A DNA stretch of 64,000 bases from an uncultured Gammaproteobacteria bacterium (GTDB lineage Bacteria > Patescibacteriota > Patescibacteriia > UBA11705 > JABHMO01). The notes beneath the pieces were generated by a model. The model was not told the DNA's origin and ran no database searches. It saw only the letters and a program-made list of their open reading frames with translations. The stretch lies in assembly GCA_964590105.1 (NCBI GenBank), contig CAZPYM010000001.1, positions 431,782 to 495,781 of the forward strand, given 5' to 3'. Every line of letters begins with the position of its first letter. The stretch's first letter is position 1. This document shows positions 28,997 through 54,035 of the stretch, piece after piece. The position numbers and the translations under genes were made by a program.

Positions 28997-30826
28997 TTAT
29001 CGCTTCATCACCGCAAGAAAAGCTTCCGGCGGAATATTCACTTTCCCTTTACCCAACGCCATCATTTTCTTTTTACCTTTTTTCTGCTTGGTGAGAAGTT
29101 TTTGGCGGCGACTATAATCACCGCCGTAAAGTTTGGCGGTCACATCTTTTCGCAAAGCTGAAATGCGTTCCGCGGCAATAATCTTGCCGCCAAGCGCCGC
29201 CTGCAATTTGATCACAAACTGCTGGCGAGGAATCGTGGCTTTCAGACCCTCAACAATTTTTTTTCCAACTTTAAATGCCGCGTCTCGATAAACAATCGTG
29301 CCAAAAGCTTCAATCGAATCTTCCGCAACTAAAATATCCAGCTTCAAAAGTTCAGCCGGCTTATAGTTGTCAATTTCATAATTCATTGAGCCGTAGCCGG
29401 AAGTTACGGTTTTTAATTTATCATAAAAATCAACAATCAACATGGCCAAAGGAATTTTGTAATGCAAAATCACTCTGGTTTCGTCAATAAATTCAGTATT
29501 TAAATATTCGCCGCGGCTCTCCTGCACCAAAGTCATAACATTGCCCATAAAATCTTTTGGCGCTACAATGTCAACCTTCATAATCGGCTCTTCCATATGA
29601 TCAATTTGCGACGGATCGGGAAATTCATTTGGATTTTTTATTAAATATTCCACATCAGACAAGATTTGTTCTGTTTTCACTCCCTTGGGAAATTTAGCGC
29701 CCGGCTTTAACACAACCTTGTAAGCCACGCTCGGAACAGTCACCACCAAGTCCAGATCAAATTCCCGCCTTAGCCGCTCCTGAAAAATTTCCAAGTGCAG
29801 CATTCCGAGAAATCCGCAGCGAAAGCCAAAACCAAGGACCGGAGAATTTTCCGGCTCGTAAGCCAGCGCGGCGTCATTTAATTTTAATTTGCCAATCGCT
29901 TCACGCAGTTCACTGTATTCGTTTCCTTCCTGACAAAATATGCCGGCGTAAACCATTGGCTTGACTTCTTTGTAGCCGGCCAAAGGCTGGGCTTTGCCTC
30001 GCTCTTTTAAAAGTGTAATCGTATCGCCGACCCGGCACTTTTCGATCTCCTTTAACCCGGTAACGACATAACCGATTTCACCGGCGCCTAATTTGTCTTT
30101 TGGAATTAAATTCGGTTTCAAAATTCCGCAATCCAGAACTTCGCCCAGAGCCTCTGTTCCGGCCATAAATATCTCATCGCTCTTTTTTATTTCCCCATCT
30201 ACAATACGGGCATAAGCAACCACGCCCTTGTATTCATCGTAATAAGAATCAAATATCAAGGCGCGGAAAGGCAAAGCCAGACTGCCTTTTGGTGCGGGAA
30301 CCTTTTCTATTACAGCCTGTAAAATTTCCAGTACTCCTTCACCGGTTTTAGCGCTGCACTTTAATATTTCCTCCGGCCTGCAACCGACAAGATTAATAAT
30401 CTCGTGCATTACCTTTTCAACATTGGCCGCCGGCAAATCAATTTTATTTATAACCGGAATAATTTCCAGTCCCTGCTCAATTGCCAAATATAAATTCGCC
30501 AGCGTCTGCGCCTGTACTCCCTGCGCCGCATCAACGAGAAGCACCGCGCCTTCGACCGCCGCGAGCGACCTGGAAACTTCATAATTAAAATCAACATGCC
30601 CAGGGGTATCAATTAGGTTCAGAATATAATCCTGGTAATTCATGCGGGCGGGCTGCAGTTTGATTGTAATTCCCCTTTCTCGCTCTAAATCCATTGTATC
30701 CAAAACCTGTTCTTTCATATTTCTCTTTTCTACAGTTCCGGTTAATTCCAAAAAACGGTCAGCCAGAGTACTTTTCCCGTGATCTATATGTGCTATTATA
30801 CAAAAATTTCTTATTTTATTCATCAT
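28997..30826 (-). CDS. lepA: elongation factor 4 (LepA); start corrected to MMNKIRNF
   Basis: FCIIAHIDHGKSTLADR G1 motif, DTPGHVDF, NKIDL; LepA-specific C-terminal domain. Confidence 0.88.
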   Translation of the reverse strand: MMNKIRNFCIIAHIDHGKSTLADRFLELTGTVEKRNMKEQVLDTMDLERERGITIKLQPARMNYQDYILNLIDTPGHVDFNYEVSRSLAAVEGAVLLVDAAQGVQAQTLANLYLAIEQGLEIIPVINKIDLPAANVEKVMHEIINLVGCRPEEILKCSAKTGEGVLEILQAVIEKVPAPKGSLALPFRALIFDSYYDEYKGVVAYARIVDGEIKKSDEIFMAGTEALGEVLDCGILKPNLIPKDKLGAGEIGYVVTGLKEIEKCRVGDTITLLKERGKAQPLAGYKEVKPMVYAGIFCQEGNEYSELREAIGKLKLNDAALAYEPENSPVLGFGFRCGFLGMLHLEIFQERLRREFDLDLVVTVPSVAYKVVLKPGAKFPKGVKTEQILSDVEYLIKNPNEFPDPSQIDHMEEPIMKVDIVAPKDFMGNVMTLVQESRGEYLNTEFIDETRVILHYKIPLAMLIVDFYDKLKTVTSGYGSMNYEIDNYKPAELLKLDILVAEDSIEAFGTIVYRDAAFKVGKKIVEGLKATIPRQQFVIKLQAALGGKIIAAERISALRKDVTAKLYGGDYSRRQKLLTKQKKGKKKMMALGKGKVNIPPEAFLAVMKR

Positions 30827-31036
30827 ATTATAATTTGAACTTGCCGCCTGCCCGCCGAAGCCTTGGCGAAGGCGGGTGATCAATGTGAACAATAATACAA
30901 AAATTACGAATATTATTCATAACAAAAACTTAAACAATTGTTGCGAGTGATTACATAATAGCCAAAAACCGCCAAAAAATCAATACACAAAAAAAGGACC
31001 CGCGCTGGGATCCTTTGCTCTATGTCATTTCTTTTT

Positions 31037-31216
31037 TCAACTTTTCTTGTTTTTCGGAGTCAACGATGTTGAAAGTGGCTGACCTGTTGGTTGCACATAA
31101 TCAGATAACTTAAAGGTTCCATTCTCCAACGTCTCTGCTATATCCGGCGGCAGAGCCTTTGCCTTGCTGCCTTCAAGCATGCACCATTTTCCGCCAACTT
31201 TTCTGATATGCGCCAT
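31037..31216 (-). CDS. hypothetical 59-aa protein (MAHIRKVGGKWCMLEG...), second gene of a two-gene cassette
   Basis: ATG 31216 with perfect SD GAGGAGGA 5 nt upstream, overlapping the stop of the upstream gene; not in the ORF track (under 60 aa). Confidence 0.4.
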   Translation of the reverse strand: MAHIRKVGGKWCMLEGSKAKALPPDIAETLENGTFKLSDYVQPTGQPLSTSLTPKNKKS

Positions 31217-31227
31217 TTGATCCTCCT

Positions 31228-31482
31228 CTATTCCTCCGCCAAAAGTTTCATCAACTCGTCCAAAGAATATCGGCGATCCTTACCGCTCTTTGCTTCTTCA
31301 TATCCCGCCGCCACTCTATCGCGAAAAGCAGGGTCGGTATTCAGTCTTTGTTCAAATCGTATTCTCACCAATTCTTCTTCCGTCAACTGCTCCGGCAGAC
31401 CGTCTTCTCCTTTTGGAAAACACTCGGCCATGGCGCAAAAGCCGCTTTTTTCGCCGCCTTTCTTGTTGTCTTTATCCGTCAT
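31228..31482 (-). CDS. putative addiction-module antitoxin-like protein (84 aa)
   Basis: C-terminal ...FRDRVAAGYEEAKSGKDRRYSLDELMKLLAEE resembles the 'putative addiction module component' antitoxin family C-terminal helix (my recollection, not searched); GC about 50%; SD GGAGGG. Confidence 0.45.
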   Translation of the reverse strand: MTDKDNKKGGEKSGFCAMAECFPKGEDGLPEQLTEEELVRIRFEQRLNTDPAFRDRVAAGYEEAKSGKDRRYSLDELMKLLAEE

Positions 31483-31574
31483 CTAGCCCTCCGTTGCCAT
31501 AACAGTCCAATTTAGTTTATCATAATGGCTTTAATTAATCAATAATCATAGATTTCATTATTTGCAATCATTTT

Positions 31575-33203
31575 TTAACCCGCTTCTCGAATTCCCTCTT
31601 CGACTTCCACGCTCTTAAATAATTTTTTCTTCAAGCCTGCTACAAAATTCAAAAGCTCTTCTGTCTGCAATAAATATCCGACCAGGACAAAAACTGCAAT
31701 TCCCACGATTGTAGCAATAAGCCCCTGCATGAAAACGCCCCAGAACTTTTGCATATCAACAGAAAGGCCGAGCCAAGTTTTGGTATACTGAACCGCAACT
31801 CCCATTAGCAATGAAGCAAAGGAAATTTTTGCCAGCGCGACGATGATGCCATTACGCCAGATATTCGGTATTCTCAGCTTCAGCCAGACCACAAGCAAAA
31901 CCAGATTAAAAATCGAACTTATAGAAAATCCGAGAGCCAAACCAAGCACGCCAATCTTTTGAATCAGCCACCAGCTCAAAAAAACATTTACCAAAAGGCA
32001 CAAAAAGGCGGCATAAAACGGAATTTTGGTATTGTGCCGGGCATAAAACGCTCTCGCCAACAAAGGAAGCAATGATTGCGCGAACAAGCTAAGACAAAAC
32101 AAACCAAGCGAATTGGCTGTCAAAACCGTATCATTCCAGTCAAATTTTCCAGAACCGAGAATAATGCGGACAATCTGCGCTCGCAGAATTATAAATAAAA
32201 TTGAACAAGGGATTACAAAAAATAAAATTTGTTTAAAAGTGCGCTGAAAAGATGAACAAAAATTTTGTTCATCTTTTCCCGCAAATGACTTTGACAGAGC
32301 CGGAAAAACAGCAATAGCGTAAGACACACCGAATATACCGATGGCAAAACTTTGTAAATTATTTGCTAGGTTAAATATCGCCAAACTTCCGGCGGCCAAA
32401 GTTGAGGCCAGAACAGTAATTATGATCAAATTAAACTGGCCGCTCGCCAAACCCAGGATTCTCGGCCCCATCATTTTAATTATTTTTACAAAATGTGAAT
32501 CCTTAAAATTTAATATAAGACGGTAACCAAACCCAAGCCGGAAAACCGTTGGAATTTGTATTAACAAATGCAGGCCGGCGCCGAGTATCACGCCAAAAGC
32601 CAAACCATAAATATTGTACCGATCCACCAAGAACAAGGCGCCAAAAATAATTCCCAAATTATACATCACCGGCGCCAGTGAAAAAATTAAAAATCGCCTG
32701 AATGATTGCAAGACGCCGCCAAAAACACCGCTAAGTCCGAGCAATATCGGACTAAAAAACATCAGACGAGTTAAATTGATAGTGAGCTGGAGCTTGTCGC
32801 CGCTAAAACCGGGCGTTATGAGCGGCACCAACCACGGACTTAACACTGCCAGGATCAAACATGCGCCGAACAAAAACAAAGCCAGAATATTTAAAATATT
32901 ATTTACAAGATTCCAGGCCAGCTCATTTGTTTTGTATAGCGGGCTTTCTTCATTTTTCAAAAGACCAATAAAAACAGGAATAAAACCCGCGGACAGCGCG
33001 CCGAGAACAATCAAATTGTAAACCAAATCAGGCACGCGAAAAGCCGCGTAGTAAATATCCAGCTCATTGCCGGCGCCAAATTGGCCGGCCAAAATGCGAT
33101 CTCGCACGATTCCCAAAATCCGAGAAAGCAAACCGGCCGCGGCGATCACCACGGCGGCTGAAGTTATGGAAGTGAATTTAGTTGCAAAAAGTTTTTTAAA
33201 CAT
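31575..33203 (-). CDS. murJ: lipid II flippase MurJ
   Basis: 14-TM MviN/MurJ sequence with conserved RILGIVRDRILAGQFGAG...DIYYAAFRVPD N-terminus. Confidence 0.85.
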   Translation of the reverse strand: MFKKLFATKFTSITSAAVVIAAAGLLSRILGIVRDRILAGQFGAGNELDIYYAAFRVPDLVYNLIVLGALSAGFIPVFIGLLKNEESPLYKTNELAWNLVNNILNILALFLFGACLILAVLSPWLVPLITPGFSGDKLQLTINLTRLMFFSPILLGLSGVFGGVLQSFRRFLIFSLAPVMYNLGIIFGALFLVDRYNIYGLAFGVILGAGLHLLIQIPTVFRLGFGYRLILNFKDSHFVKIIKMMGPRILGLASGQFNLIIITVLASTLAAGSLAIFNLANNLQSFAIGIFGVSYAIAVFPALSKSFAGKDEQNFCSSFQRTFKQILFFVIPCSILFIILRAQIVRIILGSGKFDWNDTVLTANSLGLFCLSLFAQSLLPLLARAFYARHNTKIPFYAAFLCLLVNVFLSWWLIQKIGVLGLALGFSISSIFNLVLLVVWLKLRIPNIWRNGIIVALAKISFASLLMGVAVQYTKTWLGLSVDMQKFWGVFMQGLIATIVGIAVFVLVGYLLQTEELLNFVAGLKKKLFKSVEVEEGIREAG

Positions 33204-52839: not shown

Positions 52840-52910
52840 GTATTGATTTAATCTGTTCATTTCACTAACCGTCTCAGGCAGCTATGCCACAAATAGCAAA
52901 GGGAGAAAAC

Positions 52911-54035
52911 ATGGGAAAGAAAGCGTGGACATTCGCAATTCTGCTGGGGCTTGTAGCTTCTATTTCCGTACCATGGATTGTTATCAAGATCGTTGCCAAG
53001 ACGCAGAGCCCCGAGACGCACGAGCCGACGATGATGGAGAACGGCGACAACCCGGTAGAGTCCGGCCAGGACGAGCCCACAATGATGGAAAACAGCGACA
53101 ACCCGGTAGAGTCAAGCCAGGACGAACCCACGACTCTTCGCCTGCCGATGTACGTACAAACGACGGTCCAGGCGCGCCTCCTCACGATGGAGGAACTGGC
53201 CTTGGACTTTCCGGAAAACTATGACATTGAACAACGGGGTGACTATCACAGAATCGCCAAGAACTGCACGGCGACCGAACTGGCCACCAAGGCTGATTGC
53301 CTGCCGCTCACCGGCTGGTTCAAGAAGGCTTACTTGAAGTCTGACGGTTCCATTACCGTGGACTTCCAATGCAATCCAAACGACTCGCGAATGTGTACCG
53401 TGCTTTTGCGCGGACCTGTAAGCGATGGAACTGTCTACGGCTGTGGTCTTCCGGATGCGGCCCTCGAAGATATCCTCGTCATGGACTTACTTGGCGCCGG
53501 ATATAGCCTTCTGAAAGACGGGGCAGTCGAATACATCCGCTACGGCGGCAAAGACCTAACCGGCGGCCACCATTCATTCTTCATCAAGGACGGCCTGATC
53601 TATGGTAGGTACGGAACCGATGAAGAGCTCGTGCGCCGCGCTGACGGCTCGTTTGTCCGCGAAAGCGGCTCGTTCGCCGAGCAGATCAGGAAAGAGGCTC
53701 AGGCTAAGAAAGTGCTGGACTTTCTCGGCTCCGGATACTCCATGCGCTACGACGCCGTGTTCGAGTTTATCCAATACGACAAGCAGGACGTGGTGCCTCG
53801 CGGCTACCATTACTACATCCTCCGCGATGATCGGATCTACGGCATTCTCGGCGCGACCGAAGAGGAAGTTCTCGCCAACCGGCCGAAGATTCCGCCAGAA
53901 AAAAGGGATATGATCGGTCAATCATGTCTTTGTCCGGATCTCGGACTTGGGACATGGGTGGAACTCGGGTACAAAGAGCTGGTCTGCGTTCATCTGCCGG
54001 AAAGAGGTCCCATCTGCCATTCCAACTGCTTCTAG
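52911..54035 (+). CDS. secreted hypothetical repeat protein (GC-rich cassette; alternative upstream start 52884)
   Basis: Signal peptide MGKKAWTFAILLGLVASISVPWIV; tandem EPTMMENxDNPVESxQD repeats; duplicated about 55-aa module (LLGAGYSLLKDGAVEYIRYGGKD... / FLGSGYSMRYDAVFEFIQYDKQD...); SD GGGAGA before 52911; GC about 57%. Confidence 0.65.
   Translation: MGKKAWTFAILLGLVASISVPWIVIKIVAKTQSPETHEPTMMENGDNPVESGQDEPTMMENSDNPVESSQDEPTTLRLPMYVQTTVQARLLTMEELALDFPENYDIEQRGDYHRIAKNCTATELATKADCLPLTGWFKKAYLKSDGSITVDFQCNPNDSRMCTVLLRGPVSDGTVYGCGLPDAALEDILVMDLLGAGYSLLKDGAVEYIRYGGKDLTGGHHSFFIKDGLIYGRYGTDEELVRRADGSFVRESGSFAEQIRKEAQAKKVLDFLGSGYSMRYDAVFEFIQYDKQDVVPRGYHYYILRDDRIYGILGATEEEVLANRPKIPPEKRDMIGQSCLCPDLGLGTWVELGYKELVCVHLPERGPICHSNCF

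What the first reader, a model, noticed from the sequence alone, without database searches (positions are those of the whole stretch)
31037..31482. Two-gene translationally coupled cassette resembling a toxin-antitoxin pair
The 84-aa product ends in ...GYEEAKSGKDRRYSLDELMKLLAEE, which resembles addiction-module antitoxin C-termini. Its stop overlaps a perfect SD (GAGGAGGA) for a 59-aa ORF (MAHIRKVGGKWCMLEGSKAKALPPD...) that was absent from the ORF track. GC is moderately elevated. The small partner resembles no toxin family I know.
Basis: partly seen in the sequence, partly recalled or inferred. Interest (0 to 1): 0.5.

Follow-up and report, generated by a model that had tools for sequence, protein, structure and literature searches.

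The report
Orphan antitoxin-like two-gene operon
A real two-gene mini-operon in a variable spot of an ultra-small (CPR) bacterium's genome; its relatives sit next to antitoxin-type genes, but no known toxin is present, so calling it a toxin-antitoxin pair is only partly supported.

Summary
The two minus-strand ORFs exist as described: 84 aa (31482-31228) and 59 aa (31216-31037). Each has GGAGG 5 nt before its ATG. They are 11 nt apart and are followed by a terminator hairpin. Both are protein-coding under purifying selection. Neither matches any Pfam, NCBIfam, PADLOC, PHROG or PDB family at a curated threshold.

Searches of 1.8-5.8 billion proteins found about a dozen relatives, all in related CPR bacteria. 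The cassette sits between murJ and lepA. These genes abut in distant relatives, and the slot carries different cargo in closer ones.

In sister lineages the slot holds a larger island of small, mosaic proteins:
- a protein with a bona fide Phd/YefM antitoxin domain;
- homologues of the 59-aa protein, all basic;
- several proteins sharing the 84-aa protein's C-terminal motif (DPxFRxR..AGYEEAKSGK), and acidic ones of its N+C architecture.

The 59-aa ORF is therefore conserved, but its position varies, and it is missing beside the closest 84-aa homologue. The antitoxin resemblance rests on context and sub-threshold RelB-like hits.

My best reading is a reduced, toxin-antitoxin-derived pair: an acidic neutraliser without a DNA-binding domain and a small basic partner. 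Toxicity is unproven. Interest is moderate to low.

The parts
31483..31574 (-). Intergenic leader between the murJ stop and the 84-aa start. It holds the GGAGG SD (31492-31488). By eye I read a possible promoter: TTGATT (31542-31537), 17 nt, then TGaTAAACT (-10 at 31519-31514). A palindrome TTAATTAAT lies at 31531-31542.
   Evidence: Sequence read. SD. Palindrome. The promoter reading is my inference; it scores 8 of 12 and falls below the scan threshold.
31228..31482 (-). 84-aa gene, acidic (pI 4.86). Residues 16-33 form a conserved N-module, CAMAECFPKGEDGLPEQL. Residues 38-84 form a helical C-module, F..RL..DPAFRDRVAAGYEEAKSGK...SLDEL.
   Evidence: ORF. dN/dS 0.15-0.16. Family of about 11 proteins. 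AF2 gives three helices at 35-49, 51-66 and 74-83, with a disordered N-terminus and mean pLDDT 67. pI.
31217..31230 (-). Junction: stop TAG (31230-31228), AGGAGG (31227-31222), 5-nt spacer, then the ATG at 31216.
31037..31216 (-). 59-aa gene, basic (pI 9.52). The predicted structure is three beta-strands plus one helix over residues 2-32, then a disordered Lys-rich tail. It belongs to a small 'beta family' with the motif xIRKxxGKW[CY]...GxK..LP.DIAE..E.GTF.
   Evidence: ORF. Homologues. Selection and pI. AF2.
30993..31016 (-). Intrinsic-terminator-like hairpin followed by a T-run. The hairpin is 87-94% identical to those after beta-family genes in L040 and L014. Stem positions differ in L018 and L012; by eye these changes look compensatory.
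30955..30983 (-). Promoter-like site (TTGATT, 17 nt, TATTAT) for lepA. It marks the downstream border of the cassette.
   Evidence: The stretch 31017-30953 is 77% identical to the region after the second beta gene of L040.

Best explanation
The cassette is an autonomous, accessory two-gene operon in a CPR/Patescibacteria genome. It sits in the murJ-lepA slot, which is a hot spot for variable cargo. It is a reduced version of a larger island of small, mosaic proteins found in sister lineages, where that island also contains Phd/YefM-domain proteins.

I infer that the two products act as a toxin-antitoxin-like protein pair. The 84-aa acidic, helical protein has no DNA-binding domain. It would bind and neutralise the 59-aa basic, beta-rich protein, whose Lys-rich tail suggests nucleic-acid binding. 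The close SD-mediated spacing would keep the two made together.

Shown: operon anatomy, coding status, selection, narrow distribution, hot-spot location, and the shared island with Phd/YefM proteins.

Inferred: physical interaction between the two proteins, neutralisation, and any toxicity of the 59-aa protein.
For: Anatomy: SD at 5 nt before each ATG, an 11-nt gap, and a terminator.

Coding under constraint.

Charge asymmetry holds across the families. N+C-type proteins have pI 4.8-4.9 and all beta-family proteins have pI 9.1-10.4.

Hot spot: murJ and lepA are 9-47 nt apart in L026, L031 and L032. Pentapeptide-repeat genes are inserted in L028 and L030, and an uncharacterised 130-aa ORF in L029. 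L022-25 carry a 115-aa and a 48-aa gene. L012, L014 and L018 carry an island of more than 4 kb.

In four locus types the beta-family gene follows a Phd/YefM-domain gene, by 11-39 nt in three (L014, L018, L040) and 233 nt in L012; this is the usual toxin position. The Phd hits exceed curated cut-offs: 33.7-38.9 bits against 29.8, and TIGR01552 at 36.3 against 20.8.

In L040 a beta gene also follows the 86-aa N+C gene, as in the window. The window's beta gene and terminator are related at DNA level to that copy.

Sub-threshold antitoxin signals: the window's C-module against NF048017 RelB-like, positions 43-66 of 70, E = 0.027; and the 55-aa paralogue against NF050811 RelB/ParD, positions 55-82 of 83, E = 0.003.

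Precedent: antitoxins without a DNA-binding domain exist, for example PaaA2 (PMC8630535).
Against: No toxin or antitoxin family is matched at threshold in Pfam, NCBIfam, PADLOC, PHROGs or PDB.

The YefM C-terminal similarity is not significant. BLASTP finds no local alignment between the L039 Phd-protein segment and YefM.

The pairing is loose. The closest 84-aa homologue (70% identity; L001-3) has no beta gene downstream. Five of the eleven locus types lack a beta gene. The tightly coupled conserved pair in relatives is 55-65 aa plus 86-98 aa, with 4-14 nt overlaps, not N+C plus beta.

Both structure models are of modest confidence (pLDDT 66-67).
Confidence: 0.38

Rival explanations
1. This is a toxin-less remnant or regulatory pair. 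The 59-aa basic three-strand-plus-helix protein is a small DNA-binding regulator, of Arm/AP2-like or AbrB-like type. The 84-aa protein is an orphan antitoxin-type modulator. Nothing in the cassette is toxic.
For: The cassette has no recognisable toxin and no Phd-domain gene, whereas relatives have a longer island. The beta-beta-beta-alpha prediction with a basic tail fits small DNA binders. The N-terminal MxxIRKxGGKW pattern recalls integrase Arm-type domains; this is from my memory and is not confirmed. An AT-rich palindrome lies in the promoter region.
Confidence: 0.3
2. These are lineage-specific small proteins unrelated to toxin-antitoxin biology. For example, they could be adaptors built from short linear motifs such as CAMAECFPKGEDGLPEQL, acting in envelope or host-interaction processes of an episymbiotic CPR cell.
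For: The N-module is the best conserved stretch between sister lineages: 81% DNA identity over 64 nt to L022, and 86% protein identity to P0008. It recurs at the C-terminus of 63-70-aa proteins and the N-terminus of 84-115-aa proteins. The island in L012 and L018 also carries proteins with hydrophobic N-termini and proline-rich tails on the other strand; by eye these look secreted or lipoprotein-like. All homology searches are negative.
Against: The repeated, above-threshold association with Phd/YefM-domain proteins and the acid/base pairing are more simply read as TA-derived. No signal peptide or membrane segment is evident by eye in either window protein.
Confidence: 0.2
3. The motif-bearing small proteins are Nif11-type RiPP leader-peptide precursors.
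For: Four 62-aa-type members hit the Nif11 models PF07862 and TIGR03798 at E about 0.003-0.012. The genes are tandem small paralogues, and some end in ..AGGGEHGRK.
Against: The hits are sub-threshold and cover only 19 model positions, a generic F..K..DP helix-turn that also 'hits' Protein A repeats. The window's 84-aa protein gave no Nif11 hit. It has no core peptide after the motif. No maturation enzyme or transporter is nearby.
Confidence: 0.03
4. The ORFs are chance ORFs, or the antisense 92-aa ORF is the real gene.
For: All three antisense frames of the 84-aa gene are open in the window. The wobble-sharing antisense frame is also open in L001.
Against: The sense frame has an SD and an ATG. 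Its dN/dS is 0.147 against 0.235 for the antisense frame. Motifs are conserved across divergent paralogues. The antisense frame is closed in 7 of 13 family genes. Gene callers in four sources call the sense genes.
Confidence: 0.02

Closest known systems
Phd/YefM-family type II antitoxins (for example E. coli YefM of YefM-YoeB, PDB 2A6Q)
   Same: Both are small acidic proteins. The C-module motif P-x4-R-[LV]-x3-[IY]-x3-K-[SA]-G-K lines up in register with the YefM C-terminal, toxin-wrapping segment SPANARRLMDSIDSLKSGK (real sequences, register). Homologues of both window proteins are neighbours of proteins with a true Phd/YefM domain.
   Different: The 84-aa protein has no Phd N-terminal domain. 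The profile score against three solved YefM proteins is null. No YoeB or Doc partner is present. In the island's Phd proteins the Phd domain is at the extreme C-terminus and lacks a tail.
RelB/ParD-like antitoxins (NCBIfam NF048017, NF050811)
   Same: The best, though sub-threshold, database hits of the C-module fall on the C-terminal, toxin-binding part of these models.
   Different: Scores are 14.7-17.9 bits against cut-offs of 50-60. There is no ribbon-helix-helix domain and no RelE/ParE-like partner.
Antitoxins without a DNA-binding domain in three-component loci (PaaA2 of paaR2-paaA2-parE2; epsilon of omega-epsilon-zeta)
   Same: A short helical neutraliser-type protein with no DNA-binding domain, with any regulation left to a separate protein (PMC8630535).
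   Different: Those systems carry a recognisable toxin (ParE2, zeta) and a regulator gene at the front of the operon. Neither is found here, and homology to PaaA2 was not tested.
Nif11-type leader peptides
   Same: Weak similarity of the first helix-turn, F..K.K.DP..R.
   Different: The hits are sub-threshold and only in the 62-aa paralogues. There is no core peptide and no maturation genes.

Membership tests
Type II toxin-antitoxin system (generic) | Two small adjacent co-oriented genes in one operon with close or overlapping stop and start | tested here: met
   11-nt gap, SD at the stop codon, and a shared terminator.
Type II toxin-antitoxin system (generic) | Antitoxin belongs to a recognised antitoxin family or fold | tested here: not met
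   No hit at curated cut-offs. Only sub-threshold RelB-like hits, E = 0.027.
Type II toxin-antitoxin system (generic) | Toxin belongs to a recognised toxin family or fold | tested here: not met
Type II toxin-antitoxin system (generic) | The two genes co-occur as a conserved pair in other genomes | tested here: inconclusive
   The beta family and C-module genes share an island in 5 of 11 locus types, but the order varies. The beta gene is absent beside the closest 84-aa homologue.
Type II toxin-antitoxin system (generic) | Toxin arrests growth and the antitoxin rescues | not testable with these tools
   Needs expression assays.
Type II toxin-antitoxin system (generic) | Antitoxin carries a DNA-binding domain for autoregulation | tested here: not met
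   No DNA-binding domain detected in the 84-aa protein. This feature is not universal (PaaA2).
Phd/YefM antitoxin (PF02604 / TIGR01552) | N-terminal Phd/YefM dimerisation and DNA-binding domain | tested here: not met
   No hit for the 84-aa or the 59-aa protein even at E up to 10. The domain is present only in neighbouring 182-200-aa proteins of relatives.
Phd/YefM antitoxin (PF02604 / TIGR01552) | C-terminal toxin-binding segment homologous to YefM | tested here: inconclusive
   The alignment is in register, but scores are 3.7, -0.9 and -3.4 bits against 6L8E, 2A6Q and 3CTO. No PDB-wide hit.
RelB-like antitoxin (NF048017 / NF050811) | Score above the curated cut-off | tested here: not met
   14.7 bits against a cut-off of 50, and 17.9 against 60.
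Nif11 leader RiPP precursor (PF07862 / TIGR03798) | Full leader match, a core peptide, and linked maturation genes | tested here: not met
   Partial sub-threshold hits only in the 62-aa paralogues. The neighbouring genes are murJ and lepA.

The most novel reading that the evidence does not exclude
The murJ-lepA island of this CPR clade may encode a previously undescribed, modular toxin-antitoxin-like system. Four short modules would be shuffled between small genes: the Phd domain, the helical DPxF..AK.GK module, the PCxxxEC[FL]P motif, and the basic beta module. The beta-family protein would be a new, unusually small toxin or effector. Free-standing 'tail-only' proteins such as the 84-aa product would be its neutralisers.
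Probability: 0.2. Interest if true: 0.6.

Novelty: new variant of a known kind. Interest (0 to 1): 0.35.

Why it matters
If the pair is a working neutraliser-effector module, it would add a new, very small effector family. It would also be an example of split or tail-only antitoxins in Patescibacteria, whose tiny genomes hold many unexplained small genes.

The firmer result is that the murJ-lepA junction is a recombination hot spot in this clade and swaps small-gene cargo. That is useful for studying strain-level variation in CPR genomes.

If the pair is only a decaying remnant, it is an ordinary pair of hypothetical proteins.

Tried and rejected
- Family libraries. Pfam, NCBIfam, PADLOC and PHROGs gave nothing meaningful for either protein at E up to 10.
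- PDB sequence searches. Profiles A3, A4, A5 and A6 gave only spurious hits, such as Protein A repeats and WW domains.
- YefM homology. An A5 HMM against three real YefM sequences was not significant. BLASTP of the L039 200-aa middle segment against YefM and against its own Phd domain found no alignment. Pfam on isolated N-terminal segments of island Phd proteins gave no hits. My eye-ball idea that the C-module follows a cryptic Phd-like domain is therefore unsupported.
- Plasmid search. tblastn of the 84-aa and 55-aa proteins against plasmids gave only chance-level hits.
- Viral origin. There are no relatives of the C-module, the beta family or the Phd protein in IMG/VR.
- Genome collection. 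No family member was found in the GTDB representatives. The window's own genome is not among them; the best MurJ identity is 48%.
- Metagenome scan. It added only one new locus.
- Operator or repeat search around the cassette found nothing convincing.

Full report
**Observation**

The finding lies on the minus strand. The 84-aa ORF runs 31482..31228 and the 59-aa ORF runs 31216..31037. On the coding strand the junction reads GAG GAA TAG AGGAGGATCAA ATG. The stop codon abuts a perfect Shine-Dalgarno sequence (SD), the gap is 11 nt, and the SD-to-ATG spacing is 5 nt. The 84-aa ORF has its own GGAGG 5 nt upstream of its ATG.

In this window 20 of 61 GGAGG sites precede the start of an ORF of at least 50 aa. 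SD motifs are therefore meaningful here.

A terminator-like hairpin with a T-run (31016..30993) follows the 59-aa stop. A promoter-like site for lepA comes next. The cassette is a self-contained transcription unit between murJ (33203..31575) and lepA (about 30826..28997).

GC is 0.471 against 0.415 for the window. That is about one standard deviation, and 11% of equal-sized windows are as high.

**Coding status**

The only close homologue of the 84-aa protein is P0002, at 70% identity. Against it, dN/dS is 0.15-0.16.

A 92-aa antisense ORF shares the wobble positions. It has no GGAGG site within 4-10 nt before its start, a higher dN/dS (0.235), and a frame that is closed in 7 of 13 family genes.

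For the 59-aa family, pN is 0.28-0.40 while pS is saturated at 0.71 or more. Eight metagenome contigs from different samples are 100% identical to the window over the 608-708 nt of the cassette that each covers.

**Homology**

Neither protein hits Pfam, NCBIfam, PADLOC or PHROGs at E up to 10, apart from noise.

A word-indexed search of 5.8 billion clusters found only self and P0002 for the 84-aa protein, and only self for the 59-aa protein. An exhaustive HMMER search of 1.84 billion representatives and a profile search then showed that the 84-aa protein is made of two modules:
- The C-module (residues about 38-84, F..RL..DPAFRDRVAAGYEEAKSGK...SLDEL) occurs alone in 48-65-aa proteins P0004-6 and P0009-13.
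- The N-module (CAMAECFPKGEDGLPEQL) occurs in the 115-aa P0008.

Local scans found the N-module also at the C-terminus of 63-70-aa proteins and the N-terminus of 90-98-aa proteins. The 84-aa protein aligns over its full length with the 98-aa protein of L018 (BLASTP 2e-12).

The whole family numbers about a dozen clusters, none of them named. It is absent from IMG/VR, and no C-module relative was found among the GTDB representative genomes; the 84-aa protein gave only chance-level hits in plasmids.

**Organism and location**

The window's MurJ is at most 48% identical to anything in the species-representative genomes. The best hits are Candidatus Parcubacteria and Magasanikiibacteriota MAGs, so the organism is a CPR/Patescibacteria bacterium.

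The murJ-lepA arrangement is conserved, but the gap between the two genes varies:
- L026, L031 and L032: 9-47 nt.
- L028 and L030: pentapeptide-repeat genes on the other strand; L029: an uncharacterised 130-aa ORF there.
- L022-25: a 115-aa N-module protein plus a 48-aa ORF.
- L012, L014 and L018 lineages: an island of more than 4 kb, holding about ten small genes.
- The window: only this 0.75-kb cassette.

The cassette is therefore accessory cargo in a hot spot.

**The island in relatives**

The typical gene order, as in L014-17, is:
1. a 67-70-aa protein ending in the N-module;
2. a 184-aa protein whose C-terminus is a bona fide Phd/YefM domain (PF02604 at 33.7-38.9 bits against a cut-off of 29.8; TIGR01552 at 36.3 against 20.8);
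3. an 80-aa homologue of the window's 59-aa protein (BLASTP 2e-15);
4. a 62-aa C-module protein;
5. an 89-aa N+C protein that overlaps the previous gene by 14 nt;
6. a 55-aa protein with the same motif;
7. lepA.

Six beta-family members are now known. All are basic, with pI 9.1-10.4. The N+C proteins are acidic, with pI 4.8-4.9.

In four locus types the beta gene follows the Phd-domain gene, by 11-39 nt in three of them (L014, L018, L040) and by 233 nt in L012. In L040 a second beta gene follows the 86-aa N+C gene, as in the window. The window's beta gene 5' end, its terminator hairpin and the following promoter are related at DNA level to that second L040 copy. The hairpin itself is 87-94% identical in L040 and L014, and the stem changes in L018 and L012 look compensatory by eye.

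The tightest conserved pair in relatives is 55-65 aa plus 86-98 aa, with 4-14 nt overlaps in five locus types; in a sixth (L018-21) the first gene is frameshifted and the two are 12 nt apart. It is not N+C plus beta.

The closest 84-aa homologue (L001-3) is followed by a 32-aa hydrophobic ORF and a 55-type gene with an in-frame TGA, not by a beta gene.

**Is it antitoxin-like?**

I recalled that the YefM C-terminus resembles the C-module, and confirmed the real YefM sequences from PDB. HMMER aligns them in register, with P..R[LV]...[IY]...K[SA]GK. The scores are 3.7, -0.9 and -3.4 bits, which is not significant. BLASTP and Pfam tests of a supposed cryptic Phd-like domain ahead of the C-module in the island's Phd proteins also failed.

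Two things remain:
- the above-threshold Phd/YefM neighbours;
- sub-threshold hits of the C-module to the C-terminal part of two RelB-type antitoxin models. The window segment hits NF048017 at E = 0.027, and the 55-aa type hits NF050811 at E = 0.003.

Nif11-leader hits at E about 0.003-0.012 concern only a generic helix-turn in the 62-aa paralogues.

**Structures**

AF2 predicts a disordered N-terminus and three helices for the 84-aa protein (pLDDT 67). For the 59-aa protein it predicts three strands, one helix and a disordered Lys-rich tail (pLDDT 66). No fold search gave a significant match.

**Interpretation**

The anatomy, the charge asymmetry and the shared island with Phd/YefM proteins make a toxin-antitoxin-derived neutraliser-partner pair the best single reading, at confidence about 0.4. 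The 84-aa protein would be a DNA-binding-less, tail-only antitoxin analogue. Precedent exists in PaaA2 (PMC8630535).

Whether the 59-aa protein is a toxin, a DNA-binding regulator or neither cannot be decided from sequence.

Because neither protein belongs to a known family and the pairing is loose, I file it as a possible new variant of a known kind, with moderate to low interest.

Noticed in passing
window 30877-30920 (-) and 30827-30876: A degenerate 45-nt duplicate of the lepA 5' end encodes MNNIRNFCIIVHIDH. It lies about 95 nt upstream of the true lepA start (MMNKIRNFCIIAHIDHGKS). A GC-rich hairpin, CCCGCC...GGCGGG, sits between the two copies. It looks like a recombination or insertion scar at the lepA edge of the variable slot. 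It also makes the mechanical lepA ORF, and public gene calls of 631 aa, start too far upstream at a TTG (30892).
   Followed up: partly
L026-L032, L012, L014, L018, L022 (murJ-lepA interval): The murJ-lepA junction is a cargo hot spot across this CPR clade. It is empty (9-47 nt) in some MAGs. Others hold pentapeptide-repeat genes, an uncharacterised 130-aa ORF, a 115-aa plus 48-aa pair, or a small-protein island of more than 4 kb that includes Phd/YefM-domain proteins.
   Followed up: yes
L001:765-932 (also L002): The 55-aa-type gene next to the closest 84-aa homologue carries an in-frame TGA at codon 18, in two independent assemblies. It could be a pseudogene, read-through or recoding. The neighbouring 84-aa gene itself ends in TGA.
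   Followed up: no
L001:658-756: A 32-aa strongly hydrophobic ORF (MGIVMDIVFPALFVLCGAMVTLVVRMWCENGK), with an AAGGAGGT SD, lies directly after the 84-aa homologue. It occupies the position that the 59-aa gene holds in the window and is a candidate small membrane peptide.
   Followed up: no
L018:3295-3458 (P0013): The 48-aa 'C-module' protein of this lineage is a frameshifted copy of the 62-aa gene. The rest of the motif continues in another frame.
   Followed up: partly
L039:1533-1805 and L013:240-398: A stand-alone S1 RNA-binding-domain protein of about 90 aa follows the Phd-domain gene by 10 nt in L039. This is the position that the beta-family gene occupies in other lineages.
   Followed up: no
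L001:990-1060 and L035 (about 1040-1110): The two loci share a downstream promoter and leader, CTTGACTT-N17-GTGTATAATATGCGGTYGGTTCGCAT. They therefore occupy the same genomic slot, but with different combinations of small genes.
   Followed up: no
window 31208-31486 (+): A 92-aa antisense ORF fully overlaps the 84-aa gene. All three antisense frames are open in the window. This is probably a by-product of the purine-rich coding strand.
   Followed up: yes
window 53020-53131: A 51-nt tandem repeat (2.2 copies, 88% matches) lies inside the + strand ORF 52884-54035.
   Followed up: no
window 1-64000: There are no tRNA genes and no Rfam matches at gathering thresholds in 64 kb. Nearly all long ORFs are on the minus strand.
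   Followed up: no
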